Below, piece after piece: positions 744 to 37,367 of a stretch of 38,007 bases of DNA. The notes under the pieces were generated by a model. The model was not told the DNA's origin and ran no database searches. It saw nothing but the letters and a program-made list of their open reading frames with translations. Within the stretch, counting starts at the first letter, position 1. Every line of letters begins with the position of its first letter. Location: assembly GCA_049190315.1 (NCBI GenBank), contig JAIVWD010000004.1, positions 1-38,007 on the forward strand, in the 5' to 3' direction. The position numbers were made by a program, and so were the translations under genes. This stretch comes from Deltaproteobacteria bacterium (GTDB lineage: Bacteria > Desulfobacterota > Desulfobacteria > Desulfobacterales > ETH-SRB1).

Positions 744-745
744 TT

Positions 746-1912: not shown

Positions 1913-1954
1913 TTTCCAATCTCCTGTAATCATTAAACAAACAAACGATAATAA

Positions 1955-2580: not shown

Positions 2581-2678
2581 ACTGCCTGATACGATATTTC
2601 ACGCATGACACGACAGTAGAGGTATTAAGACTTTGTGGGGGTTTATTGAACGAAATAAATCTTTTTGCGAATTTAAAG

Positions 2679-3161
2679 TCACCGGTTTTCCTTTTTTTCT
2701 CTGTCCAGTTCCCTTTTTTGATCGCGCCTTCTGATTGTCTCTCTTTTATCATACTTGCGCTTTCCCCTGGCAAGGGCAAGTGTCATTTTCACTTTTCCTT
2801 TTTTAAAATAAATGCTTAAGGGAATCAGAGAGTAACCCATTTCATTTACTTTACCATACAGCTTTTTGATCTCACGCTTGTTCAACAGCAGCTTTCTGGG
2901 CCTTAAAGGCTCATGATTGTTCTCTTGAGCAAAAGGATATGCCCCAATATGCATCTGATAAACAAAAACCTCTCCGTTTTTAATCTTTGCGTATGAATCC
3001 TTAAGATTAACTCTGCCGATTCTGAGGGATTTGACCTCGGTTCCGACAAGAACCATTCCGGCCTCATAAGTATCTTCTATAAAATAATTATATCTGGCCT
3101 TTCTATTTTCTGTAACAATTTTTTTGTGCTCTATCCCCAAATGCCGTCCTCTATCGCGCAT
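2679..3161 (-). CDS. smpB: SsrA-binding protein SmpB
   Basis: Motifs NRKARYNYFIEDTYEAGMVLVGTEVKSLR and LLLNKREIKKL, plus a basic C-terminal tail. The Met28 start (3161) gives 160 aa. The longer ORF-track start would run deep into ptsI. Confidence 0.9.
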   Translation of the reverse strand: MRDRGRHLGIEHKKIVTENRKARYNYFIEDTYEAGMVLVGTEVKSLRIGRVNLKDSYAKIKNGEVFVYQMHIGAYPFAQENNHEPLRPRKLLLNKREIKKLYGKVNEMGYSLIPLSIYFKKGKVKMTLALARGKRKYDKRETIRRRDQKRELDREKKENR

Positions 3162-4920
3162 ACACCTTTTCAGAAAGAATGCTGCCGAATGCTCCTCTAA
3201 CCAGTTTCTCAACTCCTGAGGCTGTGTTCTGTTTAAAAACATCTTTCATGAAGGCCCTGGCGTCTTCAACTTTAAGTGCCCTTATCATACTCTTTACAGC
3301 AGGAATCGACTGAGGGTTCATGCTTAATTCATCTATACCCAGGCCTAAAAGTATAGGCATGTTAATAGGATCGGCAGCCATCTCACCGCACATGAATAGC
3401 TTTATCCCTTTGTCTCTGACGACATCGGCGACATTTTTTATCATGCGTATAATAGCAGGATGAAGCGAATGGTAAAGGTGCGCTACATGTCTGTTTCCTC
3501 TATCTATTGCCAGTGAGTACTGGATAAGATCATTGGTGCCTAAACTGAAGAAATCTACTTCTCCTGCTAAAATATCCGCAATTATCACGGCAGAAGGGAC
3601 TTCGATCATTATCCCTAATTCAACATTTCTATTAAAGAGAGTTCCTTCTTTGTCCAGAGCATCAGCAACTTCATCCAATATTCTTTTTGTCTCAAGGACT
3701 TCCTCATAGCTCGATATCATGGGAATCAAAATCCTGACATTGCCAAAAGCCGCTGCCCTTAATATGGCCCTGAGCTGTGTTCTGAAGACATCAGGATTCT
3801 TCAGACAATACCTTATGGCTCGCAAGCCCAGGGCAGGATTGGCTTCCACGTAATCAGGATTATTACTAAATGCTTTGTCGCCGTTTATGTCGAGAGTGCG
3901 GATAGTTACCGGTTTCGGCGCAATCACCTCGACCACATCCTTGTATTTATCAAAAAGCTCATATTCATTTGGCAAACTAGGGCTGCTCAAATACTGGAAC
4001 TCTGTTCTGTAAAGTCCAATTCCATCTCCGCCGTAATCAATAACTGATACAACTTCTTCAGGAAGCTCGATATTGCCCATAACTTTTAACTGAAACCCAT
4101 CGGCAGTTTCAGCTTGAAGATGGCTGTCACGGGTAATAGCTGCTTTAAGTTCTTCGTATTTGGCGCTACGAACTCCATACTCCAAAAGAGTTTCTTCAGT
4201 GGGATGAATGATTACTGTGCCGACCGTACCATCAATAATAATTAAATCATCATTTTTAATGATATTAGTAGCATTGCCCAGACCCATGACAGCAGGAATC
4301 TCAAGGGTTCGGACTATAATGCTTGTATGAGATGTTTTTCCGCCCCGGTCAGTTACAAATCCCTTTATCCGCTCAAGATTTATCTGGCTTGCCTCTGCCG
4401 GAGAAAGATCGTTGGCGACAAGTATTACCCGTTTATCAATATCAGCAATTTTTTCTGATTCTGCTCCGACTAGATTTCTCATTATGCGGTCAGATACATA
4501 TACTATGTCAGTAGCGCGCTCTTTTAAATATGAGTCAGACATATTTTTAAACATGGATTTTACGTCTGATACTACCTTTTTGAGAGCCCACTCCGCATTT
4601 ACCTTTTCATTTTTAATTGCTTCAATTGTCCTGCCATACAGCATCTTATCTTTAAGCAGGACTTTGTGAGTTTCAAGTATATATGTATGATCGCGCAACT
4701 CATCGGGAGCATTAGTTATAATTGTAAGCAGTTGCTGCTTTGCCTTGTTCACAGCGCTTTTGAAACGTTTTATCTCATCCTGCACATTATCTTCGCTGAT
4801 AAAATACTTCTTTACAACGTCCACGCCTTCTATATCGACCAGATAAGCCTTTCCTATACAAATGCCAGGAGAAGCATTTATTCCGGTTAATATAATCTCT
4901 CTCGAAGCAATATCTGTCAT
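3151..4920 (-). CDS. ptsI: Phosphoenolpyruvate-protein phosphotransferase (PTS enzyme I)
   Basis: 589 aa with GINASPGICIGKAY, GGKTSHTSIIVRTLEIPAV (phospho-His region), GTNDLIQY and MCGEMA. Confidence 0.93.
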   Translation of the reverse strand: MTDIASREIILTGINASPGICIGKAYLVDIEGVDVVKKYFISEDNVQDEIKRFKSAVNKAKQQLLTIITNAPDELRDHTYILETHKVLLKDKMLYGRTIEAIKNEKVNAEWALKKVVSDVKSMFKNMSDSYLKERATDIVYVSDRIMRNLVGAESEKIADIDKRVILVANDLSPAEASQINLERIKGFVTDRGGKTSHTSIIVRTLEIPAVMGLGNATNIIKNDDLIIIDGTVGTVIIHPTEETLLEYGVRSAKYEELKAAITRDSHLQAETADGFQLKVMGNIELPEEVVSVIDYGGDGIGLYRTEFQYLSSPSLPNEYELFDKYKDVVEVIAPKPVTIRTLDINGDKAFSNNPDYVEANPALGLRAIRYCLKNPDVFRTQLRAILRAAAFGNVRILIPMISSYEEVLETKRILDEVADALDKEGTLFNRNVELGIMIEVPSAVIIADILAGEVDFFSLGTNDLIQYSLAIDRGNRHVAHLYHSLHPAIIRMIKNVADVVRDKGIKLFMCGEMAADPINMPILLGLGIDELSMNPQSIPAVKSMIRALKVEDARAFMKDVFKQNTASGVEKLVRGAFGSILSEKVYAR

Positions 4921-26285: not shown

Positions 26286-27419
26286 ATGAAAACTAAATAT
26301 ACACTAATAAGCACTAAAACAGATCTTGAAAAAATTACAAGGGATTTAAAAAAGGAAAAGTCCATTGCCTTCGACGTAGAAGCGGACTCAATGTATCATT
26401 TTAAAGAAAAGGTCTGCCTGATCCAGCTTGCTACGAAAAAAAAACATGCTGTAATTGATCCTTTACAGATCCAAGACCTCTCTTCGCTTAAAAGCCTTTT
26501 CTCAAACAACGATATTAAAAAAATTTTTCACGGTGCCGACTTCGATGTACGCAGTCTTTACAGGGATTTCAATATAAAAATAAAAAATCTTTTTGATACC
26601 CAGCTTGCCTGTATGTTTTTAGGAATCAGGGAAACGAGTCTGGATGCGGTACTTAAAAAAAGATTCAACATCAGTCTTAATAAAAAATACAGGAAAAAAG
26701 ACTGGTCCAAAAGACCTCTGCCGGAAGAGATGATAGAATATGCTGTAAAAGACACGACATATCTTATTAAACTTGCAGATATTCTGGATAAAGAACTCAA
26801 AAAAAATGGCCGTACTTCATGGGTTCACGAAGAATGTGAAATTTTAAGCAAAGTAAGACCCGCCTTACTCAATAGCGAACCATTATTTATGAAATTCAAA
26901 GGAGCCGGCAAGCTAAACCCTGAATCTCTTGCTGTCCTTGAAGCACTTCTTCAGTTTCGGTTAAGCGTGGCTGAAAAAAAAGACAAGCCTTTGTTCAAGA
27001 TAATTGGTAATAATTCCCTGATGAAAATTGTTAAGGGAAAGCCTGCTGACTTGAGGCGATTAGAAAAAACAAAAGCATTAAGCCAAAAACAGATTGAAAT
27101 GTATGGCGATGCCATAGTCAGGGCTGTAAACAATTCCCTGATGCTGCCTGCAGCAGACCAGCCTGTTTATCCGCGCAGGAAAGCTCCGGTTTTACCGCCT
27201 GAAGTTCCATTAAGGGCAAAGGCTGTTAAACGCTGGAGAGATTCGAAAGCTAAAGAATTAGGATTAGATCCAGCTATAATCTGCAATAAATCAATTATAA
27301 ACTCAATTGCAATTCAAAACCCAACGCATTTAATAGATCTTTCAAAGATTAAAGAAATGAAAAAATGGCAGAAAAAAGAATTTGGCAGAGATATAGTGGC
27401 TGTATTGAAAGATTGGTAA
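26286..27419 (+). CDS. rnd: Ribonuclease D (DEDD 3'-5' exonuclease + HRDC)
   Basis: Motifs IAFDVEADSMYHF, KIFHGADFDV and YAVKDTTYL, with an HRDC-like C-terminal half. The start is uncertain: the ATG at 26286 is preferred, with 26253 and 26202 as alternatives. Confidence 0.85.
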   Translation: MKTKYTLISTKTDLEKITRDLKKEKSIAFDVEADSMYHFKEKVCLIQLATKKKHAVIDPLQIQDLSSLKSLFSNNDIKKIFHGADFDVRSLYRDFNIKIKNLFDTQLACMFLGIRETSLDAVLKKRFNISLNKKYRKKDWSKRPLPEEMIEYAVKDTTYLIKLADILDKELKKNGRTSWVHEECEILSKVRPALLNSEPLFMKFKGAGKLNPESLAVLEALLQFRLSVAEKKDKPLFKIIGNNSLMKIVKGKPADLRRLEKTKALSQKQIEMYGDAIVRAVNNSLMLPAADQPVYPRRKAPVLPPEVPLRAKAVKRWRDSKAKELGLDPAIICNKSIINSIAIQNPTHLIDLSKIKEMKKWQKKEFGRDIVAVLKDW

Positions 27420-27456
27420 CGGTTCACGGCTAACGGTTACAAAAAGGATAATTGAA

Positions 27457-27669
27457 ATGAAATTCGCAAAGATAACAATTATTATTTCTCTGGTTTTAGC
27501 ATTTTTATTCTTGTGTAATGCAAACCGCGATGTCCAGTGCGCTGAGAATGAAAATCAATGTTTTAAATGCCATACCAGCGCTAAAAATCTTATAAAAATT
27601 ACACGGGAAATAGCTGAAACCAGCCCGTCCAAACCTGCAATTTCTTCTGAAACCTCAGGTGAAGGTTGA
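27457..27669 (+). CDS. Signal peptide + monohaem cytochrome c segment, ending at an in-frame TGA
   Basis: It carries the signal peptide MKFAKITIIISLVLAFLFLCNA and one CFKCH haem motif. It is in the same frame as 27679-28797. Confidence 0.6.
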   Translation: MKFAKITIIISLVLAFLFLCNANRDVQCAENENQCFKCHTSAKNLIKITREIAETSPSKPAISSETSGEG

Positions 27670-27677
27670 GGAGGCTT

Positions 27678-27698
27678 TGTGGAGCCGTTGGCTCCGCA
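27678..27698 (+). promoter_or_regulatory. SECIS-like hairpin downstream of the TGA at 27667-27669
   Basis: UGUGGAGCC-GUU-GGCUCCGCA forms a 9-bp stem with one G:U pair. The apical loop starts with G and begins 18 nt after the UGA (17 nt between the UGA and the loop). Confidence 0.4.
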
Positions 27699-28797
27699 TG
27701 AGAAGGTGTTTGTTGACTCCTCTTTTACAGAAGACGAAAATCATGGTAAAATTGGATGTCATGAATGTCATGGAGGTAACCCCGATGATCCTGACTGGAA
27801 AACAGCGCACAAAGGTGTAATAAAAGATCCTTCATTTCCTGATCCTTCAAACACATGCGGATCATGCCACGATGATATTGCCAGGCATTACAAAAGCAGT
27901 CTCCATATTAATCTGGGGCCATTCAAAAAAATTATCGATAAACGGTCAAGTATTGACGAAATTGTGCATTCAAAAGTCGATGATGCAAGAAAAGCTCATT
28001 GTACTTCCTGCCACAGCAGTTGCGGTCAGTGCCACATCAGCCGTCCTGAATCCGTGGGTGGAGGGCTGTTGGATGCTCATATTTTTCAGAAAAGTCCCCC
28101 AATGAACCTGGTATGCACTGCCTGTCATGGAAGCCGAATAAAAAATGAATATTTTGGTGAAAATAAAGGGATGCCTCCTGATATACACAAAGAAAAATAC
28201 TTTAAATGCAGTAAATGCCACAAGGCAGATGAAATGCATGGTGACGGCAAGGACTATGCGAACCGGTACGAAGTTGAAAACGGTCCTAAGTGTTTGAACT
28301 GCCATGCAAATATTTATGATTCAAAGTCATCAATAAACGCAAAGCAGCACATATTACACAGAGACAGGGTCAGTTGCCAGGTCTGTCATTCAGTAAAGTA
28401 CAAGAATTGTTATGGCTGTCATGTAGGAAAAGACAAACAGGGCATTGAATGTTTTAAAACAAAACGCTCAACCATTGATTTTAAAATAGGTTTTAATTCT
28501 CTTAAAAGCAAAAAAAGGCCCGAAAAGTTTGTTGTCGTACGCCATATCCCTGTAGACCAGGAAACCTTTGCTCATTATGTTGATAACGGCCTTTCCAATT
28601 TTGACAAACTTCCCACATGGAAACCTGCAACTCCTCATAATATCAGGAGGCAGACCCCACAAAATAAAACATGCAATTCATGTCACGGAAATACCAATCT
28701 TTTCCTGCTTGAAAAGGACGTAGAGCCAGCTTATAAAAATGCAAATAAAAACGTTATTGTATCGCCGGAAATGATACCGAAAAAGATAAACAAATAG
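27679..28797 (+). CDS. Decahaem cytochrome c lacking its own signal peptide; probably continuous with 27457-27669
   Basis: Ten CxxCH motifs: CHECH, CGSCH, CTSCH, CGQCH, CTACH, CSKCH, CLNCH, CQVCH, CYGCH and CNSCH. The N-terminus VEPLAPHEKVFVD has no hydrophobic export signal. Confidence 0.85.
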   Translation: MEPLAPHEKVFVDSSFTEDENHGKIGCHECHGGNPDDPDWKTAHKGVIKDPSFPDPSNTCGSCHDDIARHYKSSLHINLGPFKKIIDKRSSIDEIVHSKVDDARKAHCTSCHSSCGQCHISRPESVGGGLLDAHIFQKSPPMNLVCTACHGSRIKNEYFGENKGMPPDIHKEKYFKCSKCHKADEMHGDGKDYANRYEVENGPKCLNCHANIYDSKSSINAKQHILHRDRVSCQVCHSVKYKNCYGCHVGKDKQGIECFKTKRSTIDFKIGFNSLKSKKRPEKFVVVRHIPVDQETFAHYVDNGLSNFDKLPTWKPATPHNIRRQTPQNKTCNSCHGNTNLFLLEKDVEPAYKNANKNVIVSPEMIPKKINK

Positions 28798-28900
28798 AAC
28801 AACAGTTCAGTAAGGCACAAAAACATGTAAAAAGTCGGGCTGTCAATCACTCAACCAATTTCCCACTCGACTACTCAACAAATACCAGAGGAGGAATTTT

Positions 28901-29362
28901 ATGAAAAAATATTCAACGCTTATTATTGCTTTATTATTAGGAGTCAGTCTTATTATAGGTGGTTGTACAACCCCCAAAGTGATGACCACCAAAGATCTAA
29001 CCCCCAAAGTGATGACCGCCAAAGATCTGGTCGCTGAAGCCAACGAACATGTAACCAACGTTCCTGTTTCGGTTGCAAAGGAGTTGCTCGATGAAGGAGG
29101 GTATATTTTCCTTGATGTAAGGACAGCAAAAGAATTTAAAATGGGTCATATACCGGGGGCTGTTCATATTGAGAGAGGATTGCTGGAATTTATGATCAAC
29201 AATCAAGTACCTGATAAAAATGCCCAAATCGTCGTTTACTGCAAGGTGGGAGGGCGCGGATCACTTGCCGCCCATACTCTGATACGTATGGGATATAAAA
29301 ACGTTAAAAATATTGAAGGCGGCTGGGTTCCCTGGGAAAAGGCCGGCTATCCTGTTGAGTAA
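28901..29362 (+). CDS. Rhodanese-domain lipoprotein (sulfurtransferase)
   Basis: Lipobox LIIGGC. The rhodanese core reads FLDVRTAKEFKMGHIPGAVHI, with the active-site loop VVYCKVGGRGS. Confidence 0.85.
   Translation: MKKYSTLIIALLLGVSLIIGGCTTPKVMTTKDLTPKVMTAKDLVAEANEHVTNVPVSVAKELLDEGGYIFLDVRTAKEFKMGHIPGAVHIERGLLEFMINNQVPDKNAQIVVYCKVGGRGSLAAHTLIRMGYKNVKNIEGGWVPWEKAGYPVE
28971..29030 (+). repeat. 30-bp tandem duplication inside the rhodanese linker
   Basis: cccccaaagtgatgaccaccaaagatctaa is followed by cccccaaagtgatgaccgccaaagatctgg (27/30 identical). Together they encode TPKVMTTKDL TPKVMTAKDL. Confidence 0.9.
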
Positions 29363-29382
29363 TTCTCTGCTCTAATTTAATA

Positions 29383-29652
29383 TAACGGTTTACGGTTATC
29401 GGTTTACAGTTCACGGTTTTTTCAATGAACAATACCTCGGAAGGTTGCAAATTGCGTTTTTTTCGGTGAGCAATGAGCATCAAGAGCAAGGCGCGAAGAC
29501 GCGTAATAGTAGGGGCACGATGCATCGTGCCCCTACCATCTGCCTGAGCAACGCAGCTATTGGTGTTTATGTCCAGCGAAAAACCGCAATTTGTGGCCTT
29601 TCGAGATATATACAACGCCTGAAGCATTTTAACTGTTAACCGTGAACTGTTA
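29383..29652. repeat. Heptamer-armed palindromic element enclosing a third MITE-like unit
   Basis: Outer arms: taacggtttacggttatcggtttacagttcacgg and gttaaccgtgaactgttac. Inner TIRs: ggttgcaaattgcg (29443) and cgcaatttgtggcc (29598). At the centre is a perfect 28-nt palindrome, gtaggggcacgatgcatcgtgcccctac (29509-29536). Confidence 0.7.
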
Positions 29653-29889
29653 CTATTGGGGCTTGACCTGACTTTTAAGAAGTTCTTTTAATCCCTCCAG
29701 GGTCCCCTTCCACACTGCATCATCTCCAGCCATTATTGATACTATAATGTTTTTCTCCACACTGACTTCCAGGACTATTTCTTCGTCTCCGGCCTTGAAT
29801 ACAGCTTCACCCCATCTTTCCGCCGGAAGACCTGTTATTTCACAATCGTAATCTGTTCTTATTTCTCCTGTCATTCTTATCTCGCTCAT
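29653..29889 (-). CDS. Small acidic hypothetical protein
   Basis: 78 aa with a strong Shine-Dalgarno (SD) sequence (taggaggagataATG). I recognise no family. Confidence 0.55.
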   Translation of the reverse strand: MSEIRMTGEIRTDYDCEITGLPAERWGEAVFKAGDEEIVLEVSVEKNIIVSIMAGDDAVWKGTLEGLKELLKSQVKPQ

Positions 29890-30140
29890 TATCTCCTCCT
29901 AAATTATCTTCCCATGTAGATTTACCGATACCTCGCGGCCCAAACAAAAAAGCTCTGTTTTGTATCCCTGAAAAAGCGAGTTATTGTTTCCATAATAGAG
30001 CTTGCTTTTGCATTATGTCAAACAAAAGTGTGGGTAGCCCAAAGTAAAATATAACATCATCAAGGTTGCAATCGGAAAAAAACAACTTATATTTTTAGAG
30101 TACTCCATCAAGACACGGAGATACCGACAAGATAAAAAAA

Positions 30141-30236
30141 TAGTAACTACTCAGGTGGATAGGCTGAAGGCTGAAGACTGTTAGGAAAAAGCGCCTTCAG
30201 TCTAAACAGCTTCAGCCTGACTACGTGAGTAGTCAC
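30141..30236. repeat. Hairpin element with GCTGAAG heptamer arms
   Basis: tagtaactactcagg..ggctgaaggctgaagactg is inverted relative to cttcagtctaaacagcttcagcctgactacgtgagtagtcac. It lies directly upstream of the ATG at 30261. Confidence 0.55.
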
Positions 30237-30260
30237 AAAAAATAAAAGGAGATAAAAATA

Positions 30261-30824
30261 ATGACTGACTATTTTGATGTTACTCTTTACAGTGGCGGGC
30301 ATAAGGGAGCCGAGGCCGAGTTCGGAAAGCTTGCTGAGCGCTGGGGGATTCAGGAGGTTAACTTTTCGTTCGAGGGACACAATATCGAACGTACCAGAGG
30401 TGTCCGGGTGCTGAGCCTGGAAGAACTTGACAAGGGGGATGTCAGCATGGAAATAGTCTCTGCCCGCATGGGACGGAATTATTCAAAGGCTGAAAAAATA
30501 CGAAAGGTCATACAGTCTATTTTTCACATGGTCAACAATGGTTACCACGTGATAGCAGTCGGATGGATACAGCCGGATGACACCGTCAAAGGAGGAACCG
30601 GTTGGGGCGTTGAGCTTGCAAAGCTCTTTAACCGTCCACTCAATGTATATGACCAGGAACGCAAAACATGGTTCTCATGGAAGGATAACAAATGGGTTGC
30701 CGAAACGCCCGTTATTATCGACAAAACATTTGTCGGAACAGGAACCCGAAATCTCAGTGACGAAGGCCGCAAAGCAATTCACGAACTTTTCGAAAACTCC
30801 TTTGGACCCGCAAAAGAGAAATGA
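30261..30824 (+). CDS. LOG/SLOG-superfamily-like Rossmann protein (putative nucleotide-binding or nucleotide-processing)
   Basis: 187 aa with an AAGGAG SD sequence. YSGGHKGAEAEFG resembles the LOG GGGxxGxMG motif. KGGTGWGVELAKLFNRPLNVYD resembles PGGxGTxEE followed by KPxxLxN. The assignment rests on motif resemblance only. Confidence 0.4.
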   Translation: MTDYFDVTLYSGGHKGAEAEFGKLAERWGIQEVNFSFEGHNIERTRGVRVLSLEELDKGDVSMEIVSARMGRNYSKAEKIRKVIQSIFHMVNNGYHVIAVGWIQPDDTVKGGTGWGVELAKLFNRPLNVYDQERKTWFSWKDNKWVAETPVIIDKTFVGTGTRNLSDEGRKAIHELFENSFGPAKEK

Positions 30825-30932: not shown

Positions 30933-32969
30933 TCAGCATGTTGCTCCAAGCGCCTTAAATGCGGCGTCAACAGGATCAGAATAAAAGCTGGTCTGGAATT
31001 TGGCAAAGAGTTCTCCTGGGATAGTCTGAATATCACCAACATTGCTCATGGGTATCAAAATACGTTTGGCGCCTGAATCAAAAGCCACTTGCAAGGTTTC
31101 AGCAAGATTTGCAGTTGGCACAATGTTTCCTCCCAGGCTCATGTCGCCAAGAACGACCATTTGACTTTGTATCGGTTTGCTCATAAGCCCTGAGCACAAT
31201 ACAACAAAGCTACAGAGGGTTAATGCACTTGCAGCGCCGGTATTGTACATTTCCACGATATGGATATGGTAGTCATGATCTCCAACCTTGCTCATCGAAC
31301 TCACTCTTTTTATGTTAGCTTTAAAATAATCGAACGCTATCTTGATCGCCTCTTTAGTCTTGGGATTAACTCCAGAACCGGAAATGGAGAGTTTGCCGTT
31401 TCCTCCGACGACCTGAAGTTCCAGCCTGTAGAGTCCCAAATGTTCACTTGTGCCGAGAGCAACTGTATGCATTGTGCCAGGACTCAGTGGTCCTTCAGGT
31501 ATTAATGAACCGCCTCTCTGTTCAGGAACGCTAACAAACTTTTCTTCGAGTGTCTCATTGTCTATATAACTAAAATGAACATCATAAAATTCCATGCCTC
31601 CGATTTTCTTGAGCTGTTCCTTAACTCGTCTTCGGTTTTCCAGCGCATAGACAAAACAACGTTCCACTGCATCCTTGTCAAATTCACCATGAGGATAAAG
31701 CAATTTTAGTAAACCGGAAACGCTCTTGCGCACTGCAATGACATCTCTCTGGTTCAAGTTGTTTCCGATCTTGAAATACTGATCTATAGCATCAGAAAAG
31801 CTCCTCTTACGCATTTCCCGCAAAAATTCAGCGAGAAAATCGACAATCAATCCATATTGATTCGTCAAAAATTCAGGGCGCATTTTGGGAATTTCCCACC
31901 CTGGAAGATATGCATGCATCCGGTCAAAAAACGCCGAATCAATCATTTCTTCAGGAAACGGTGCAAAGAGATGACCTGTCTTTACAAGAACATCGACGCT
32001 CTGGTTGATATTTCCCACAAAAACCATAGCGGCATTTGCACTGATAACATCACGTCCCCTGGAAAAAGAACCTGATGCCATAAAATCTTTCATTATCTGC
32101 ACGCCATCCTTGTCTTTAAATCTGATTCCAGCTACCTCGTCAAATGCTACCACATCCCATACACCGACCAACCCCACTAGTCGGCTGCTCATATTATAAA
32201 ATAGATTTGCGACAGTAGTCTGGCCACCTGAAACCAGTATCGAGTTTGGACTGATTTCTTTGTAAATGTGACTTTTGCCTGTCCCTCTTGGCCCGAGTTC
32301 GCAAATATTATAATTGTTTTCAACAAAAGGTATTAAACGCGCTATAAGATGCCATTTGACGCGCTCCTCAAAGTTTGTTGGCTCCAAACCGGTTGACCTA
32401 AGAAGAACATCCAGCCACTGGCTTTCGGTAAATGCTCTTCTACCTTCAAAGACTGCTTGCATATCGAGATTAGGCATCTGAATCGGCTTGATTTCGGAGA
32501 TTATAAAAGGAGAACCTTTTGATCCCTCATCATAAAAATATTGCAGGTTAAGAATACACCAGATTCCGCCAACGAGAAGTTTCTCGTACTTTTTGATGGT
32601 TTCGCTCGATATTTCAATGCCCTTGACACCGAGATTAGAGAGCATTGCCTCGTAAACGTCTCTTTTTTCGTTCAACTTGACGGTAACTTTGTCGATGATT
32701 TTATAATTGCCCAGCTCTTTTATTTTTGATTTGATCTTTTCAGCTTCATCCGGTCTGACATAATTTTCGGCCAGGATATTCTTGACTGTATTAAGTCCAT
32801 CCTGAATTACTTCCTCATCATCTACCGCACAATACATTCCAAGGAGATATTCCAGAACGTAAACCGGGACATTTGCTCCTTCCTTAAGCAGTTTTGTCAG
32901 GTCTTTGCGCACAACACGACCAGCAAAGTGAATATTAAGCAAGTTGTCAATGTTTGTATCAGTTTTCAT
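30933..32969 (-). CDS. brxL: BREX system Lon protease-like protein BrxL
   Basis: Motifs: LLNIHFAGRVVRKDLTKLLKEGANVPVYVLEYLLGMYCA, ELGPRGTGKSH (Walker A), VAFDEVAG, NLNQRDVIAVRK, and the Lon-like C-terminus MVVLGDMSLGG..SGAKRILIPM. The start is set at Met28 (32969). Confidence 0.93.
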   Translation of the reverse strand: MKTDTNIDNLLNIHFAGRVVRKDLTKLLKEGANVPVYVLEYLLGMYCAVDDEEVIQDGLNTVKNILAENYVRPDEAEKIKSKIKELGNYKIIDKVTVKLNEKRDVYEAMLSNLGVKGIEISSETIKKYEKLLVGGIWCILNLQYFYDEGSKGSPFIISEIKPIQMPNLDMQAVFEGRRAFTESQWLDVLLRSTGLEPTNFEERVKWHLIARLIPFVENNYNICELGPRGTGKSHIYKEISPNSILVSGGQTTVANLFYNMSSRLVGLVGVWDVVAFDEVAGIRFKDKDGVQIMKDFMASGSFSRGRDVISANAAMVFVGNINQSVDVLVKTGHLFAPFPEEMIDSAFFDRMHAYLPGWEIPKMRPEFLTNQYGLIVDFLAEFLREMRKRSFSDAIDQYFKIGNNLNQRDVIAVRKSVSGLLKLLYPHGEFDKDAVERCFVYALENRRRVKEQLKKIGGMEFYDVHFSYIDNETLEEKFVSVPEQRGGSLIPEGPLSPGTMHTVALGTSEHLGLYRLELQVVGGNGKLSISGSGVNPKTKEAIKIAFDYFKANIKRVSSMSKVGDHDYHIHIVEMYNTGAASALTLCSFVVLCSGLMSKPIQSQMVVLGDMSLGGNIVPTANLAETLQVAFDSGAKRILIPMSNVGDIQTIPGELFAKFQTSFYSDPVDAAFKALGATC

Positions 32970-33058
32970 ATTTTTTACCTTTAGAGCCTGTTTAAAAAAT
33001 GATGAATTGGCTGCAAAAGCGTGAAAATGGTTCAATTCCCTAGTTTTCAAACAGGCTC

Positions 33059-35683
33059 TTAGAAATCGTTTGCAAAGGCTATATCTATTATTGTCGGTAT
33101 TCGATCATATTCGGTGTCATCAATGTTTCGTAATACAAGATAATACTCCTTTTTATTGTCATAGGATCCTGTCTTTAGCGCCAGTTTTACGGATTTTTGG
33201 CGTTCATCCATTGATGAAGACCTGCTGTCAAATGTAACTGTTTCTTCATTGCTTATAAGCTCATTTCCATCACGAAGAGACACCTTCAACGTTATTGGCT
33301 TCATGCGGTCAGACACAGCATCGGTTTGGATAAATTTATAAATTGGTCTATTAGTTACCAGCTTCTTGTATGAACCAAGCAGCGATACGCCAACTTGACG
33401 CACTTCGGATTTTTCCAGATGTTTCCCCTTCATTTCGTATGCTGTAATCACAGGGATTACAATTTCCTGAAGCATAGCGCCACCATGGAAAAATCTTGCC
33501 CCGCCGACAAAATTGAAACGATTCGTGCCTTTAGGCAGCAAAAATTCCATATCTGTATCTGTTTTAGCCGTTATTCTTGTATTGCCGGAGAAGGCTTTAT
33601 CCGATTTGCCTAAATTTCTCCCAAGTATGAATCTTTTATGGGTTTTTACCGCATCTTTTTGATTTGTCTCAAGTTTGCTTTTATCAATGGGTTCAGGAGT
33701 TTTCTCCTGATAAATAAATCCATGATCTGCTGTTATGATAACCCTTGTCCCGTTTAAACTATTTATGATGAATCTAACCAGCGCATACAGGTCATTTATG
33801 GCTTTTCGCACAGCCTCAAATGTATTACTTTCCGATACAGCTTTATCACCGATTGCATCAATCTGATCATGGTAAATATAGATGACTCGATGCGGTTTAA
33901 CAAACTCCCGCCCTTTATCCTTGCTCATGGACATCAGGTTATCTGCTTTGATCGCAGTGCCGCTATATTTTCCTAAAATATCCGCACGTTGATCCAGTGA
34001 TCCGGCCGGTTTTTCATCTATAACAATATCCGCAGTCGGACTGTCTTTGAAGGAAATAGTTTTATGAGGCAACAATGATGCCATTCCCAAAGCCGTGTAT
34101 CCGGGCAGAATGCCTAACATTGGCTCAATCTCGGCTTTCAGACGGTATTTACCATTAATTTTCTGAGCAAGTTCCTCTGCGGCTTCAAAGCGGAAAGCAT
34201 CGCTGACAATAACAAACAGCCGGTTTCTGGAAGACCCTTTCAGTGTCGGGTTAACATATCTATTAAAAAAATCGTACTGGTTGACTACATTTGGAATTTT
34301 CCATTTTTTAAGCAGATTATCAGAATGTTCTGTTTCTAAAAAGTCACCCCATTTCAGTGACAGTTGATCCATATACCAGCCGCTATAGCAGTTCTCAACA
34401 GTCTCTCTAAGCGATTTCAGGACATCCCAGCCCGCCAGATCAGCTTTATCTGCAAGCTCATGAAATTTCCTGTAATGTTGATCAAATAAAAACAGTTCGT
34501 TTGTATATGCTTTAAACATATCTTCAGCCGTGGGGTAACTGAAGCCCGCATCATATTTCTTCCTGAGATCGAACAGTTTGATAGCAGCCTCTAATGCGTG
34601 ATAAGCCGTTTGATAAAGGTTTATCTGAGAATCTTCACTTAAAACAGTGGTTGCCCAGTATCCGTCAAGTCTGATCTTGATCGCCTCCCGTACCTTCTGA
34701 TATTCATTTTCGGAATCGATACCGATTTGATCCCTGAGATCGCTGATAATCCTGCGCTCTACGGACTCAAATGTCATCACCTCAATTAATGACTCAATAT
34801 CATAGGATATCAGCAATTCATCAATTTTCAGCTTTTTGGCAATAAACTTTGAAATAAGATTAAAGTTCTTAAAATGACCGGTGTTGCTGCGCCACTGAGA
34901 CAGAAATACAGATGAATTCATTGCCTGAGAGGAGCTTTGAATTACAAAATGGGAAATAGATGCCGGCAGCTCGGCTTTTAGGCTATTTGAAAGATCGGTC
35001 ACAAACAACCGAAGCAAAAAATCAGTTAAATTCGGAGAATCTTCGTTTATGTACCCAAATGTCTGAGCCAGAAGTCTCCAGAATGAAGGCTTTAATTCAA
35101 GTTTTCCAATTTCTGTCCACAATTTGGAGGGTTTATCAACATCAAACTTGCCATCCCGGCAAAACGAGTCAAATAGTTTCATCAGGATTGAAAATAGCTC
35201 GGGCTGTTCAGCCCTTGTGATGACAGCGAGCATTTTAAGCTCTATATCTTCTTCTCTGTCACCTGGGGTGACCCATTTCTTCAGCCTGTTGAGCCTGTCC
35301 TGACTTCTAAAAAAAGCCTTACGTTTCTTTAAGTATGGGCGTATGCTTTGATTTTCAAGGTTCAGTTCCTTTAGAAGGATAGAAGCTTTATCTGCATGGA
35401 AAGTATAACTGTAAAGCCGTATATCATAAAGCCAGTCATCTTCAGGAGCGGGCTCAGGGTAAGGAGCATAAAGTATATATTTCCCGGTTGTGTCTTCAAG
35501 CTCCAGCCTGATCTTTAAGTCAAGTAAACCGATTTCATTCAAACGTAAAATATTAACGCCATCCATCTCAAGAAAAGGTATTGTCTGCTCAAATTCCTTT
35601 TCGCCATCATACCAGAAGATGATACGCTTGTTTTCTTCATTGAAAATTTTATTCAGGCTGTCTTCGATTTGTTTGATGTCCAT
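33059..35683 (-). CDS. pglZ: BREX phosphatase-like protein PglZ (type A)
   Basis: About 874 aa. The N-terminus has RIIFWYDGEKEF. The alkaline-phosphatase-like core reads LFVIVSDAFRFE ... ITADHGF. It lies immediately upstream of brxL, as in type 1 BREX. The start is set at MDIKQIE (35683). Confidence 0.88.
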   Translation of the reverse strand: MDIKQIEDSLNKIFNEENKRIIFWYDGEKEFEQTIPFLEMDGVNILRLNEIGLLDLKIRLELEDTTGKYILYAPYPEPAPEDDWLYDIRLYSYTFHADKASILLKELNLENQSIRPYLKKRKAFFRSQDRLNRLKKWVTPGDREEDIELKMLAVITRAEQPELFSILMKLFDSFCRDGKFDVDKPSKLWTEIGKLELKPSFWRLLAQTFGYINEDSPNLTDFLLRLFVTDLSNSLKAELPASISHFVIQSSSQAMNSSVFLSQWRSNTGHFKNFNLISKFIAKKLKIDELLISYDIESLIEVMTFESVERRIISDLRDQIGIDSENEYQKVREAIKIRLDGYWATTVLSEDSQINLYQTAYHALEAAIKLFDLRKKYDAGFSYPTAEDMFKAYTNELFLFDQHYRKFHELADKADLAGWDVLKSLRETVENCYSGWYMDQLSLKWGDFLETEHSDNLLKKWKIPNVVNQYDFFNRYVNPTLKGSSRNRLFVIVSDAFRFEAAEELAQKINGKYRLKAEIEPMLGILPGYTALGMASLLPHKTISFKDSPTADIVIDEKPAGSLDQRADILGKYSGTAIKADNLMSMSKDKGREFVKPHRVIYIYHDQIDAIGDKAVSESNTFEAVRKAINDLYALVRFIINSLNGTRVIITADHGFIYQEKTPEPIDKSKLETNQKDAVKTHKRFILGRNLGKSDKAFSGNTRITAKTDTDMEFLLPKGTNRFNFVGGARFFHGGAMLQEIVIPVITAYEMKGKHLEKSEVRQVGVSLLGSYKKLVTNRPIYKFIQTDAVSDRMKPITLKVSLRDGNELISNEETVTFDSRSSSMDERQKSVKLALKTGSYDNKKEYYLVLRNIDDTEYDRIPTIIDIAFANDF

Positions 35684-35709
35684 GAATTGCCTTTGTTGCG
35701 GGGAATATT

Positions 35710-36237
35710 TTATCCCGACCTCTTTACCGGGCATTGTTTCAGTTTTTCATTCCAGGTTTGCTCATTGAATACAAGCGCTTCTTCAACATAATGGTTCTTC
35801 CATGCAGAATTGTCCGGTCCCAACAAACAGCTTGAGCGTTTCAGATCTTCCATTGATCTGAGCAGCAATGCCGGATCAAGGTTTCCAATGGCCAAAAGAA
35901 CGAGATACTTCATAGGCTTGGACGGGAGTTTCTTGCTCAAATGAAGATACAGAAAGCTGTCCTTGATCTTTGGGCCAAGTTCATTTGAAAAAATAGTTTC
36001 ATTATCTATCTTTGCAATGAATTTTTTCAATTCATTTCTTCTGATTTCAGAAGGTATCTTTGAGTTAGACGGGTCTTTCACTTCCACGAACCAAAACTCA
36101 TTATCCCATTCCACTATAAAGTCCACCGCTTTCATGCAGTGGGACAATTTGTGCGTATCCTTATCATCAAACTGATCTGACTTGATCGCAGCAGAAAAAT
36201 CAAATACAAGCTCACCCTCACTTAATACCTTACCCAT
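35710..36237 (-). CDS. Small PD-(D/E)xK-like putative nuclease, partner of the upstream ATPase
   Basis: About 175 aa from MGKVLSEGE. The candidate restriction-endonuclease-fold motif is KAVDFIVEWDNEFWFVEVKD (D...E-V-K). The start overlaps the ATPase stop by 8 nt. The gene ends 26 nt before the pglZ start. Confidence 0.55.
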   Translation of the reverse strand: MGKVLSEGELVFDFSAAIKSDQFDDKDTHKLSHCMKAVDFIVEWDNEFWFVEVKDPSNSKIPSEIRRNELKKFIAKIDNETIFSNELGPKIKDSFLYLHLSKKLPSKPMKYLVLLAIGNLDPALLLRSMEDLKRSSCLLGPDNSAWKNHYVEEALVFNEQTWNEKLKQCPVKRSG

Positions 36238-37234
36238 TGGCACCCCCCATCGCCCGGTCGATTTCAAGATTGTACATTCTTGCAAACTGGTCAGCAATTC
36301 TATTAGGAGATAGACCAGGGTAGGAATCTGATACAGCCAAATTGATTTCCCGGTTCTTGTCCATAAATAATGAATAAAACCGAAGAGAATGGTCCTTGCG
36401 TTGAAGATCAAACTCCTTTAGCAAAGCATAGCTGTGAGTCGCAATGAAGATTTGTACGCCCATTCTTTCCAGTTCCAGAAGAATCATTACAATCAAAGGG
36501 AGCATGGATGGATTAAGGTTAGCCTCTGGTTCGTCCCAGTAAAGGGTCGATCCTTTTTCTATGGATCCGTTTCTGATCAAAAGCCAGAGAAGAGCAAGCT
36601 TGCGCATACCTTCGGCCACAAGGGTAAACTCAATTTCACCAGTTTTGTTTTTTAAAAAGAATACTTCATTTTTTTCCAGAACTTTTCCCCCCATTGCTTT
36701 TTGCAGCGCCTTTAGAATCTTTTCCTTCTCAGAGCTTATGCTTTTAAGCGGTGGCAGGAGCGCCTTGTCGATGATGTCAGCATAAATCTCCTCGAAATGG
36801 ATTTCTCTTTCATTATAAAGCGACCTGAACCCAGGCGCATTGGCGAGCATCTCTTTGACAGGAATATACACCGATTTAGACGGCCGCATGTGCTCTGGTC
36901 CCAATTCCGTATGAAGCCCATTATCTTTGAGGGTACCTGTTAATAGTTCGCCATTTTTGGTAATAGATATCGAAAATTTCTCTTTCGACCCTTTTCCCCG
37001 CCGAACCAGCCGTTTCAATAAAAAACCTTGGGGTAAAAATACTCTCAACAGCTTATTTGCAAATTCCTTAAAAAGTCCCCTTTTGATTCCCGTTGCATGA
37101 AACGAATATAAAAGCTTTAACAAATGGGTTTTCCCCGTTCCGTTTTCCCCAATGAACAGATTAACCCCGGGCACAAAGTCAATTTCCAGCTCATCAAATA
37201 CAGTAAAATTTTTAATTTTAATTTTTTCAATCAT
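36230..37234 (-). CDS. ABC/SMC-like AAA ATPase (AAA_21/AAA_15-like)
   Basis: About 334 aa from MIEKIKIKNFTVFDELEIDF. Walker A is GENGTGKTHLL, a signature-like segment is VAEGMRKLALLW, Walker B is TLYWDEPEANL and the H-loop is IATHS. The start is set at Met23 because the upstream codons translate a REP. Confidence 0.8.
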   Translation of the reverse strand: MIEKIKIKNFTVFDELEIDFVPGVNLFIGENGTGKTHLLKLLYSFHATGIKRGLFKEFANKLLRVFLPQGFLLKRLVRRGKGSKEKFSISITKNGELLTGTLKDNGLHTELGPEHMRPSKSVYIPVKEMLANAPGFRSLYNEREIHFEEIYADIIDKALLPPLKSISSEKEKILKALQKAMGGKVLEKNEVFFLKNKTGEIEFTLVAEGMRKLALLWLLIRNGSIEKGSTLYWDEPEANLNPSMLPLIVMILLELERMGVQIFIATHSYALLKEFDLQRKDHSLRFYSLFMDKNREINLAVSDSYPGLSPNRIADQFARMYNLEIDRAMGGANG

Positions 37235-37250
37235 AATAGATTCCTCTATA

Positions 37251-37367
37251 GTAGGAGGGGTTTTAACCCCGAATATACGGGTGGTTTTAACCCCGACCAT
37301 ATATGGGTGAATTTACATCTGTTGGTGATCTGCCACAATAGGTCGCGGTTGAAACCGCTCCTACATC
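37251..37367. repeat. REP doublet (REPIN-like)
   Basis: gtaggaggggttttaaccccg... is inverted relative to ggtcgcggttgaaaccgctcctac. It is a direct copy of 37913-38005 with a 23-nt internal duplication. Confidence 0.75.

What the first reader, a model, noticed from the sequence alone, without database searches (positions are those of the whole stretch)
27457..28797. Single in-frame TGA joins a signal-peptide/monohaem ORF to a signal-less decahaem ORF: candidate selenocysteine-containing 11-haem cytochrome c
Seen in sequence:
- ORFs 27457-27669 and 27679-28797 are in the same frame, separated only by the TGA at 27667-27669 (...ETSGEG-TGA-GGFVEPLAPHEK...).
- The downstream ORF has ten CxxCH motifs but no export signal. 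The only signal peptide is in the upstream ORF.
- A 9-bp hairpin with a G-first apical loop (27678-27698) starts 9 nt after the TGA. Its loop begins 18 nt after the UGA (17 nt between the UGA and the loop), which is within the range reported for bacterial SECIS elements.

Established knowledge: c-type haem attachment needs periplasmic export, and sulfate-reducing Desulfobacterota are rich in selenoproteins.

Inference: the two ORFs are read as one polypeptide with Sec at the TGA. Sec could act as a haem ligand or a chalcogen-carrying residue.

Counter-evidence: GAGGAGG at 27668-27674 followed by the GTG at 27679 could instead be an RBS and start codon for a separate gene. There is also no Cys next to the TGA to form a CxxU-type motif.
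Basis: partly seen in the sequence, partly recalled or inferred. Interest (0 to 1): 0.72.

Follow-up and report, generated by a model that had tools for sequence, protein, structure and literature searches.

The report
Unannotated selenocysteine 11-haem cytochrome c
The two ORFs are almost certainly one gene for an exported 11-haem cytochrome c with a selenocysteine at the TGA, the founding example of a widespread selenoprotein family of sulfate-reducing bacteria that public annotation splits into two "hypothetical" genes.

Summary

- **Conserved UGA.** All 80 related genome loci fetched carry the same in-frame stop in the motif GEG-U-GG. It is always TGA, never TAA or TAG. They span Desulfobacterales, Desulfatiglandales, Syntrophobacterales and Desulfovibrionales, and include cultured Desulfosarcina alkanivorans and D. 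widdelii.
- **Upstream ORF is translated.** The signal-peptide/CxxCH ORF is conserved as protein right up to the stop.
- **SECIS-like hairpin.** It is held by RNA-level selection. Synonymous codons are frozen only there, and 4 of 8 pairs show compensatory changes. Homologues at 38-43% identity keep the hairpin with a different stem.
- **Cys homologues.** Distant relatives carry Cys at that column.
- **Sec decoding in relatives.** Six related loci carry a canonical Sec formate dehydrogenase a few kb downstream of the cytochrome gene.

The protein is not a member of MccSep/ExtKL, the one characterised multihaem selenoenzyme. It has 11 haems rather than 5, an N-terminal Sec, no haem-ligating Cys and no detectable sequence match.

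A rhodanese gene follows in 75 of 80 loci and is fused to the cytochrome in some homologues. I infer a periplasmic sulfane-sulfur or selenium reductase; this function is not shown.

GenBank and RefSeq split the gene into two proteins.

The parts
27457..28797 (+). Single selenoprotein gene: precursor of a 446-residue, 11-haem cytochrome c with Sec at residue 71. The stop codon is at 28795-28797.
   Evidence: The reading frame is continuous except for one TGA. tblastn matches in 80 loci span query residues about 1-446 across the stop. The in-frame TGA is conserved in 80 of 80 loci.
27457..27543 (+). Sec-type export signal (MKFAK + ITIIISLVLAFLFL + polar c-region). The cleavage site is approximate.
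   Evidence: The 12-residue hydropathy maximum is 3.29, against 0.12 for the N-terminus of the downstream ORF. A comparable hydrophobic N-terminus is present in the homologues. The exact cleavage site is inferred, not computed.
27559..27573 (+). Haem-binding motif 1 (CFKCH), on a conserved helix (CxxCHT..R/KKLIxITREI).
   Evidence: C35, C38, H39, T40, L45, I46 and R50 are invariant in 46 non-redundant sequences. In the AlphaFold2 model of a Cys homologue this helix has pLDDT 96.
27667..27669 (+). UGA read as selenocysteine (Sec71), inside the invariant Gly-rich motif G-E-G-U-G-G.
   Evidence: TGA in 77 of 77 motif-matched loci, never TAA or TAG, plus the 4 remaining loci and 3 divergent homologues. 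Cys sits at this column in stop-free homologues.
27678..27698 (+). SECIS-like hairpin. The conserved 8-bp stem is 27679-27686 paired with 27690-27697. The apical loop GUU is at 27687-27689, with 17 nt between the UGA and the loop.
   Evidence: Centroid fold. 94.6-95.4% of cells are paired, against 28-54% for shifted registers, and 4 of 8 pairs show double compensatory changes. Codon entropy collapses only here (V75 0.16, L78 0.0 bits, against 1.1-2.2 elsewhere). The architecture matches the SECIS of the neighbouring Sec formate dehydrogenase in relatives.
27670..28794 (+). Decahaem body of the protein (ten CxxCH motifs). The C-terminal third is predicted to be a beta-strand domain.
   Evidence: Pfam hits are Cytochrom_c3_2 (39.8 bits) and Cytochrome_C7 (36.1 bits). 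The AlphaFold2 model of homologue P0090 has mean pLDDT 89.1 with strands at residues 310-358.
28901..29362 (+). Partner gene: a small rhodanese lipoprotein. The lipobox Cys22 codon starts at 28964. The active-site loop C114-KVGGR is at 29240-29257.
   Evidence: Pfam Rhodanese at 83.8 bits. A rhodanese lies directly downstream of the cytochrome in 75 of 80 loci. Rhodanese is fused to the cytochrome in P0130, P0142 and L085.

Best explanation
Positions 27457-28797 are one gene. The ribosome decodes the UGA at 27667-27669 as selenocysteine, directed by the hairpin at 27678-27698, which acts as a bacterial SECIS bound by SelB.

The product has an N-terminal signal peptide, so the whole chain is exported. 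Eleven c-type haems are then attached in the periplasm. Sec71 sits in an invariant Gly-rich loop (GEG-U-GG), at the end of a variable linker between the haem-1 helix and the decahaem body. That linker is modelled with low confidence.

Inferred function: the protein works with the rhodanese lipoprotein encoded immediately downstream. The rhodanese would carry sulfane sulfur (or selenium) as a persulfide. The nucleophilic selenolate would take over the chalcogen, and electrons from the 11-haem chain would reduce the Se-S(Se) adduct to sulfide. This would make it a periplasmic polysulfide/sulfane-sulfur (or selenite) reductase.

In mechanism it would be analogous to the pentahaem selenoenzyme MccSep, but it is evolutionarily independent of it.

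What is shown: the recoding signature, the conserved hairpin, the Cys homologues, and the linkage and fusion with rhodanese.

What is inferred: selenium insertion itself, the substrate, the direction of the reaction and the electron donor.
For: Recoding:
- In-frame TGA at the same column in 80 of 80 species-level loci, never TAA or TAG.
- The same TGA is present in homologues of 38-43% identity.
- The upstream ORF is conserved as protein right up to the stop, with G68, E69 and G70 invariant.

SECIS:
- 94.6% of cells are paired and 4 of 8 pairs show double changes. Shifted-register controls give 32-54%.
- Synonymous codons are frozen only in the stem-loop codons.
- The loop is lost (GUU to ACA) in the Cys form L082.
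- Canonical Sec-FdnG genes in relatives have an 8-bp stem with a 3-nt G-first loop at a similar distance from the UGA.

Cys/Sec pair: GEWCGG, GEGCGG, GECCGG, SCGG and GGCGG in stop-free homologues.

Sec decoding in relatives: HQARI-TGA-HS formate dehydrogenase genes lie a few kb downstream of the cytochrome gene in L016, L028, L063, L067, L080 and L081.

Export logic: only the upstream part has a hydrophobic N-terminus.

Transcription unit: sigma-54 promoters lie upstream of the upstream ORF in 31 of 77 loci, where I estimate about 0.4 by chance. An enhancer-binding protein gene is adjacent in 49 loci.

Function:
- Rhodanese lies downstream in 75 of 80 loci.
- C-terminal (P0130, P0142) and N-terminal (L085) rhodanese fusions exist.
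- The MccSep precedent is a Sec-dependent polysulfide and selenite reductase (PMC13510729).
Against: - There is no direct evidence of selenium in the protein.
- The window contains no selA, selB, selC or selD gene and no tRNA-Sec, so the Sec machinery of this organism is assumed from relatives.
- One close homologue has TGG (Trp) at the column with an intact hairpin (L081). Other distant homologues have Tyr, His or Leu, or lack the motif. The residue is therefore not indispensable across the wider superfamily.
- Apart from the CxxCH cysteines and Sec71 there is no conserved Cys, so the MccSep Sec/Cys-haem mechanism cannot be copied directly.
- There are 12 conserved extra His for 11 haems. This neither requires nor excludes Sec as a haem ligand.
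- The functional assignment rests on gene linkage and analogy only.
Confidence: 0.85

Rival explanations
1. Two separate genes. Translation stops at the UGA, giving a 70-residue exported monohaem peptide. It restarts at the GTG at 27679 from the GAGGAGG Shine-Dalgarno sequence, giving a separate decahaem protein. All public annotation uses this model.
For: An SD-like GAGG followed by GTG 8-9 nt later is present in the window and in most homologues. Gene callers, GenBank and RefSeq annotate it this way: DSCA_51140 + DSCA_51130, and WP_155306883.1.
Against: - The downstream product has ten CxxCH motifs but no export signal, so it could not be matured.
- The stop is TGA in 80 of 80 loci, and the two parts are always in the same frame at the same column.
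- Stop-free homologues are single ORFs with Cys at the column.
- GAGG follows automatically from UGA-GGN.
- In the GSVDLAP subclade the Val codon is GTA, which is not a start codon.
- Synonymous constraint fits a hairpin, not an RBS.
Confidence: 0.03
2. The UGA is read through, but as a standard amino acid (Trp, Cys or Gly by near-cognate tRNA). The hairpin acts as a generic read-through stimulator rather than a SECIS.
For: A close homologue encodes Trp (TGG) at the column with the hairpin intact (L081). Selenium incorporation is untested.
Against: - Sec/Cys pairing at a column is the classical selenoprotein signature.
- The hairpin has the geometry of bacterial SECIS elements, and of the Sec-FdnG SECIS in related genomes.
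- The hairpin loop is lost when Cys replaces the UGA.
- Those related genomes demonstrably encode Sec proteins.
- Efficient programmed UGA read-through of this kind is not an established mechanism in Desulfobacterota (my own knowledge).
Confidence: 0.05
3. Pseudogene or sequencing error: a once-continuous Cys- or Trp-containing cytochrome gene is broken by a point mutation in this assembly.
For: A single base separates TGA from TGG and from TGC/TGT. The window is a metagenome-type contig.
Against: The same TGA is present in 80 independent species-level assemblies, including two complete genomes of cultured strains. Both flanks remain under purifying selection.
Confidence: 0.01
4. The gene is one selenoprotein, but Sec71 is not a substrate-attacking nucleophile. 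It would be the distal axial ligand of one haem (His/Sec ligation), tuning its potential or forming the catalytic haem, as Cys does in TsdA, SoxAX, DsrJ or MccSep haem 2.
For: - Sec71 is the only conserved chalcogen residue outside the CxxCH motifs.
- Across the wider family only about 9 of the extra His are conserved, for 11 haems.
- His/Cys-ligated haems are typical of sulfur-converting cytochromes (PMC13510729).
Against: - Within the Sec clade, 12 conserved non-motif His are available for 11 haems.
- The Gly-rich flanks and the low model confidence around the residue (pLDDT about 66) suggest a mobile loop rather than a fixed ligand.
- No coordinates were available to measure distances.
Confidence: 0.15

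Closest known systems
MccSep / ExtKL (GSU2937-2936) of Geobacter sulfurreducens: multihaem cytochrome c selenoprotein and polysulfide reductase (PMC13510729; NCBIfam NF040886; PDB 9wt8/9wt9)
   Same: - It is a periplasmic multihaem cytochrome c whose gene was long annotated as two ORFs split at an in-frame UGA followed by a SECIS hairpin.
- Sec sits on a Gly-containing mobile loop.
- Cys-type homologues exist.
- Its genomic neighbourhood includes a rhodanese-like lipoprotein (ExtH, in the ext cluster).
- It occurs in Desulfobacterota.
   Different: - MccSep has 5 haems; this protein has 11.
- MccSep's Sec325 is in a C-terminal Ig-like domain (motif DGUP). Here Sec71 lies between haem 1 and haem 2 (motif GEGUGG).
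- MccSep needs a conserved haem-ligating Cys239. Here no conserved non-motif Cys exists.
- No sequence match was found: there is no NF040886 hit at E<=1, and 9wt8/9wt9 are not matched by the protein at E<=10 nor listed among the 60 profile hits shown, although they are in the library.
Tetrathionate-reductase-family octahaem cytochrome c (OTR, TIGR04315; PDB 1sp3). A selenoprotein form is listed as 'GenBank annotated' in PMC13188914.
   Same: It is a multihaem cytochrome acting on sulfur compounds. The family profile gives local similarity over the central haem-packing region (E 8e-10, profile 173-306 against OTR 92-236).
   Different: - The TIGR04315 score is 19.1 bits against a cut-off of 375.
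- OTR has 8 haems, not 11.
- The N-terminal Sec region does not align.
- No Lys-ligated active-site haem can be identified.
Rhodanese sulfur carriers coupled to periplasmic chalcogen reductases: Sud with polysulfide reductase in Wolinella (my own knowledge), and ExtH in the Geobacter ext selenite/tellurite cluster (PMC5877670; NF040901)
   Same: The partner is a small periplasmic or lipoprotein rhodanese with an intact active-site Cys, encoded next to the redox enzyme it would serve.
   Different: - The window rhodanese scores only 19.1 bits against the ExtH model, whose cut-off is 200.
- The partner here is a cytochrome, not a molybdoenzyme.
- In this family the two are sometimes fused into one polypeptide.
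His/Cys-ligated haem enzymes of sulfur metabolism (TsdA, SoxAX, DsrJ)
   Same: These are c-type cytochromes that use one chalcogen side chain next to or on a haem to make or break S-S bonds.
   Different: - Here the residue is Sec and lies in a Gly-rich loop.
- Ligation to haem is not shown.
- There is no sequence relationship.

Membership tests
Bacterial selenoprotein gene (UGA-Sec recoding) | In-frame UGA with conserved coding sequence on both sides | tested here: met
   Both flanks are conserved as protein in 80 loci, and G68, E69, G70, G72 and G73 are invariant or nearly so.
Bacterial selenoprotein gene (UGA-Sec recoding) | The interrupting codon is always UGA in orthologues, never UAA or UAG | tested here: met
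   TGA in 77 of 77 loci, plus L008, L060, L068 and L078 and L083-L085.
Bacterial selenoprotein gene (UGA-Sec recoding) | SECIS hairpin immediately downstream. Published bacterial SECIS model, recalled from memory: apical loop 16-37 nt after the UGA, with G among the first loop bases. | tested here: met
   - 8-9 bp stem, loop GUU, 17 nt of spacing.
- Covariation and register controls.
- Synonymous-site constraint.
- Similar to the Sec-FdnG hairpins of related genomes.
- bSECISearch itself was not available, and Rfam has no matching model.
Bacterial selenoprotein gene (UGA-Sec recoding) | Homologues with Cys at the Sec column | tested here: met
   P0090 GEWCGG (TGC); P0167 GEGCGG; P0154 and P0157 GECCGG; P0140 and P0156 SCGG; P0204 and P0259 GGCGG.
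Bacterial selenoprotein gene (UGA-Sec recoding) | selA, selB, selC (tRNA-Sec) and selD in the same genome | not testable with these tools
   None is present in the 38-kb window, and the rest of the genome could not be searched. Indirect support: six related loci carry a Sec (TGA) FdnG gene a few kb downstream of the cytochrome gene.
Bacterial selenoprotein gene (UGA-Sec recoding) | Selenium actually incorporated in the protein | not testable with these tools
   This needs 75Se labelling or mass spectrometry.
MccSep / ExtKL multihaem selenoprotein (NF040886) | Sequence membership (family HMM or similarity to PDB 9wt8) | tested here: not met
   There is no NF040886 hit at E<=1. 9wt8/9wt9 are in the PDB copy. 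They are not matched by the protein at E<=10 and are not among the 60 profile hits shown.
MccSep / ExtKL multihaem selenoprotein (NF040886) | [quoted passage not shown] | tested here: not met
   This protein has eleven CxxCH motifs and Sec at residue 71 of 446 in GEGUGG. The only conserved Cys are the 22 motif Cys and the Sec column.
Octahaem tetrathionate reductase family (TIGR04315) | HMM score above the curated cut-off | tested here: not met
   19.1 bits against a cut-off of 375. Only local haem-core similarity to 1sp3 was found.
ExtM / ExtN cytochromes of the Geobacter selenite/tellurite cluster (NF040943, NF040967) | HMM score above the curated cut-off | tested here: not met
   ExtM scores 38 bits against a cut-off of 800. 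ExtN scores 40.5 bits against 200 for homologue P0090.
Exported multihaem cytochrome c | Multiple CxxCH motifs, an N-terminal export signal, and hits to multihaem Pfam families | tested here: met
   11 CxxCH motifs. Cytochrom_c3_2 scores 39.8 bits (cut-off 25) and Cytochrome_C7 36.1 bits (cut-off 24.8). The N-terminus is hydrophobic.
Rhodanese (PF00581), for the partner gene 28901-29362 | Rhodanese domain with the catalytic Cys loop | tested here: met
   83.8 bits against a cut-off of 22.2. The active-site loop is C114-KVGGR and the lipobox is IIGGC.

The most novel reading that the evidence does not exclude
Sec71 is the distal axial ligand of one of the eleven haems. That would be a naturally occurring His/selenolate-ligated haem c, which as far as I know has not been reported in nature. 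Sulfane sulfur delivered by the rhodanese would be inserted and reduced directly at a Se-Fe centre. This would make the family a mechanistically new class of chalcogen-converting haem enzyme rather than a parallel of MccSep.
Probability: 0.15. Interest if true: 0.9.

Novelty: new variant of a known kind. Interest (0 to 1): 0.66.

Why it matters
- **A new selenoprotein family.** It adds a second, evolutionarily independent family of multihaem cytochrome c selenoproteins. The first, MccSep, was characterised only in 2026.
- **It is widespread.** There are relatives in 436 of 185,579 species genomes and in 1,853 protein clusters at 90% identity. Among the loci fetched these are mostly Desulfobacterota of the sulfate-reducing orders.
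- **Public annotation is wrong.** GenBank, RefSeq, IMG and UniProt split the gene into a 70-aa and a 371-aa protein, even in complete genomes of cultured Desulfosarcina strains. The family is absent from the 2026 catalogue of prokaryotic selenoproteins and from NCBIfam.
- **It suggests a sulfur-selenium link.** The strict linkage and occasional fusion with rhodanese point to an unrecognised selenium-dependent step in periplasmic sulfur (or selenium) cycling.
- **It is testable now.** Two cultured hosts are available for biochemistry.

Tried and rejected
- **Rfam.** The gathering scan of the window found only the tmRNA. The permissive scan of 27600-27780 gave only chance snoRNA and lncRNA hits. 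Rfam has no model that fits a bacterial SECIS.
- **Foldseek.** The AlphaFold2 model searched against the PDB gave no match at E<=0.001. Multihaem folds are poorly captured, and that library ends in April 2026, so it may not contain MccSep.
- **Model coordinates.** They are not exposed by the tools, so Sec/Cys-to-haem-motif distances could not be measured.
- **70-aa ORF search.** The homology search with the upstream ORF alone reached only 23 close relatives.
- **Promoters and terminators in the window.** There is no sigma-54 promoter near the gene; the 18 matches in the window equal the chance expectation, and none lies upstream of 27457. No intrinsic terminator was found in 27000-30300.
- **Family memberships rejected.** Membership in MccSep, OTR and ExtM/ExtN was considered and rejected on the tests listed in the membership table.
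- **RNase D.** Linkage with the upstream RNase D gene was rejected. It is present only in the 8 closest relatives.
Full report
**1. Observation**

- ORF 27457-27669 encodes 70 residues and carries a single CxxCH (CFKCH). Its N-terminus is strongly hydrophobic, with a 12-residue Kyte-Doolittle maximum of 3.29.
- ORF 27679-28797 is in the same frame. It has ten CxxCH motifs and a hydrophilic N-terminus (0.12).
- The only interruption is the TGA at 27667-27669, giving ...ETSGEG-TGA-GGFVEPLAPHEK...
- The hairpin at 27678-27698 (9 bp, loop GUU) is the centroid structure of the local fold.

In isolation the fold is only mildly unusual: z = -2.24, and 5 of 200 shuffles fold as well. The window alone therefore could not decide the matter.

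**2. The TGA is conserved across a large family**

A protein search with the fused sequence returned 1,853 clusters.
- Nearly all of the 120 listed are about 371 aa and start at 'MEPLAPHEK', which means gene calls truncated at the TGA.
- Two are full length (444 aa).

A scan of one genome per species found 436 relatives, of which the 80 best loci were fetched. The tblastn matches run across the stop, covering query residues about 1-446.

In 77 loci a motif search found the in-frame stop at the same column, and it is TGA every time. The four loci missed by the motif search also have it, so the count is 80 of 80.

The hosts are MAGs labelled Desulfobacterales, Desulfatiglandales, Syntrophobacterales and Desulfovibrionales, plus the complete genomes of Desulfosarcina alkanivorans PL12 and D. 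widdelii PP31.

The upstream part is conserved as protein right up to the stop. C35, C38, H39, T40, L45, I46, R50, G68 and G70 are invariant and E69 nearly so (44 of 46) in 46 sequences that share less than 85% identity.

Three homologues at only 38-43% identity (L083, L084, L085) also have TGA in G-x-G-U-G-G.

This excludes a sequencing error or a pseudogene. It is also very hard to reconcile with two independent genes, which would not keep the same stop codon, frame and column.

**3. The hairpin behaves as a SECIS**

- *Pairing and covariation, close relatives.* Over 54 sequences the 8-bp stem is paired in 95.4% of cells, with A-U to C-G double changes in 7 sequences.
- *Pairing and covariation, divergent homologues added.* The stem sequence changes completely while the spacing and the G-first 3-nt loop stay. 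The variants are GUGGAGCC/GGCUCCGC, GUGGCGCC/GGCGCUGC, GCGCCUCC/GGAGGUGU and UACCUCC/GGAGGUA.
- *Controls.* In that set, 4 of 8 pairs show double changes and 94.6% of cells are paired, against 32-54% in shifted registers.
- *Synonymous sites.* Codon entropy at conserved four- and six-fold degenerate codons is 1.1-2.2 bits throughout the gene. It collapses at the stem-loop codons: V75 GTG 0.16, L78 TTG 0.0, P80 0.85, A79 1.08. The Gly codons just before the hairpin vary freely.
- *Loss with Cys.* In the Cys-type homologue L082 (TGC) the loop is lost, GUU to ACA.
- *Positive control.* Sec formate dehydrogenase genes (HQARI-TGA-HS) lying next to the cytochrome in related genomes carry an 8-bp stem with a 3-nt G-first loop, 23 nt after their UGA. 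The architecture is the same.

**4. Cys homologues, and Sec use in relatives**

Stop-free full-length homologues have Cys at the column: P0090 GEWCGG, P0167 GEGCGG, P0154 and P0157 GECCGG, P0140 and P0156 SCGG, P0204 and P0259 GGCGG, and P0152, P0155 and P0181 DGCA.

Others have Trp, Tyr, His or Leu, or lack the motif. The residue is therefore characteristic of a large subfamily, not of the whole superfamily.

Six related loci encode a canonical TGA-containing FdnG a few kb downstream of the cytochrome gene, so these lineages decode Sec. The window itself has no sel genes and no tRNA-Sec. For this organism the machinery is inferred.

**5. The RBS/GTG alternative**

'GAGG' after the stop is forced by UGA followed by Gly-Gly codons, whose third bases vary. 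The GTG is the first stem codon. In the GSVDLAP subclade the Val codon is GTA, which is not a start codon.

A decahaem protein without a signal peptide could not be matured in the periplasm. This rests on established knowledge of Ccm-dependent haem attachment.

In 31 of 77 loci a near-consensus sigma-54 promoter (TGGCAY-N5-TTGCW) lies upstream of the upstream ORF, where I estimate about 0.4 would be expected by chance. A PAS/sigma-54 enhancer-binding protein gene is adjacent in 49 loci. The transcription unit therefore starts before the signal-peptide part.

**6. What the protein is**

Pfam sees only generic multihaem domains.

No NCBIfam model reaches its cut-off:
- ExtM, 38 bits against 800.
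- TIGR04315, 19 bits against 375.
- ExtN, 40 bits against 200 (for homologue P0090).

No solved structure is close by sequence. A family profile gives only local haem-packing similarity to GSU1996, OTR, MccA and others.

An AlphaFold2 model of the Cys homologue P0090 is confident overall (pLDDT 89.1, pTM 0.84).
- The haem-1 helix is at pLDDT 96.
- The linker and the Sec/Cys loop are less confident (66-79).
- The C-terminal third is a beta-strand domain.

Foldseek against the PDB found nothing.

Apart from the 22 motif cysteines and Sec71 there is no conserved Cys. There are 12 conserved extra His for 11 haems.

**7. Context and likely function**

A 153-aa rhodanese lipoprotein gene (28901-29362) follows the cytochrome. 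It has a lipobox (IIGGC) and the active-site loop C114-KVGGR.

A rhodanese is directly downstream in 75 of 80 loci. In some homologues it is fused to the cytochrome:
- C-terminal fusions of two rhodanese domains in P0130 (a Sec type, L083) and P0142.
- An N-terminal fusion in L085, in frame with the haem-1 motif and the UGA.

These fusions also explain the odd IMG label 'thiosulfate/3-mercaptopyruvate sulfurtransferase' on many truncated cytochromes.

The upstream RNase D gene is linked only in the 8 closest relatives and is not part of the module.

The proposed mechanism is therefore inference from linkage, fusion and analogy. The rhodanese presents sulfane sulfur (or selenium). The Sec71 selenolate on its Gly-rich loop attacks it. 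The haem chain then reduces the Se-S adduct.

Periplasmic formate dehydrogenase or the cytochrome c3 pool are plausible electron donors, since FdnG is adjacent in several loci. I put the recoding at about 0.9 and this specific chemistry at about 0.4.

**8. Comparison with what is known**

The literature search found one characterised multihaem cytochrome c selenoprotein, MccSep/ExtKL of Geobacter (PMC13510729; first predicted in PMC1914089).
- It has five haems.
- Sec325 sits in a C-terminal Ig-like domain, in a DGUP loop.
- Haem 2 is His/Cys-ligated.
- It has polysulfide and selenite reductase activity.

A 2026 review of prokaryotic selenoproteins lists ExtKL, the GSU2204 family and a GenBank-annotated OTR-family form as the only haem-related families (PMC13188914).

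The present protein matches none of these by HMM or by sequence. It differs in haem number, in the position and motif of Sec, and in lacking the partner Cys. MccSep entries are present in the PDB copy but are not matched.

It therefore works like a known kind of protein, a Sec-containing multihaem cytochrome with a rhodanese partner, but it is an independent family.

GenBank, RefSeq and UniProt annotate it as two proteins:
- DSCA_51140 (70 aa) plus DSCA_51130 (371 aa).
- WP_155306883.1, a 371-aa 'multiheme c-type cytochrome'.

**9. Verdict**

This is a new, widespread and mis-annotated selenoprotein family, and the second type of multihaem selenoprotein.

What remains open:
- Direct proof of selenium in the protein.
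- The sel genes of this organism.
- The role of Sec: a mobile nucleophile or a haem ligand.
- The substrate.

Noticed in passing
L081:3001-4335 (CP070657.1, protein P0081): A close homologue has TGG (Trp) instead of TGA at the Sec column, yet keeps the consensus SECIS hairpin (GTGGAGCCGTTGGCTCCGC). It lacks the downstream rhodanese; a Sec-type FdnG gene follows instead. This could be a very recent Sec-to-Trp change, a decaying copy or an assembly variant.
   Followed up: partly
L074:6184-6243 (CP070673.1); proteins P0154, P0157, P0137, P0174, P0158: Some lineages have a second chalcogen residue next to the column: U-C in L074; CC in GECCGG and GLCC; CxxC in CDGCGG and CENCSG. This hints that a vicinal Se-S or S-S redox pair has evolved repeatedly at this site.
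   Followed up: no
L016, L028, L063, L067, L080, L081 (for example L067 around 12599): Periplasmic FdnG-type formate dehydrogenase genes with the canonical HQARI-TGA-HS selenocysteine lie a few kb downstream of the cytochrome gene. They could be the electron source, and they provide a same-genome SECIS for comparison.
   Followed up: partly
Related loci, upstream of the cytochrome gene (for example L071:4303-5658 and L028:5537-5893): A PAS/sigma-54 enhancer-binding protein gene is adjacent in 49 loci. Sigma-54 promoters are present in 31 of 77 loci. A small gene of about 118 aa, which looked NifX-like by eye (not checked against Pfam), lies directly upstream in 21 loci. None of these is present in the window, where RNase D ends 37 nt before the start codon.
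   Followed up: partly
window 28970-29032: The linker of the rhodanese lipoprotein contains a tandem duplication of a 10-residue unit (TPKVMTTKDL / TPKVMTAKDL).
   Followed up: no
window 30933-37300, minus strand: A defence island lies right after the cytochrome-rhodanese pair. It holds BREX genes brxL (30933-33050) and pglZ (33059-35734), followed by a HEC-02 B/A candidate pair (35710-36411 and 36230-37300) that probably sits inside the BREX locus.
   Followed up: partly
window 731-3242: A tyrosine integrase (731-1912, plus strand) lies next to the tmRNA gene (1955-2305, minus strand; tag ADDYNYALAA) and smpB (2679-3242, minus strand). This is the usual layout of an island integrated at ssrA.
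   Followed up: no
window 29653-29889 (minus strand) and 30261-30824 (plus strand): Two ORFs, of 78 and 187 aa, lie between the rhodanese gene and the BREX genes. They have no Pfam, NCBIfam or PADLOC match.
   Followed up: partly
Database annotations of homologues: Many truncated cytochromes carry the IMG name 'thiosulfate/3-mercaptopyruvate sulfurtransferase', apparently transferred from rhodanese-fused relatives. One RefSeq copy is assigned to Breoghania sp., and single MAG copies to Anaerolineales and Spirochaetales. These look like binning or contamination artefacts.
   Followed up: no
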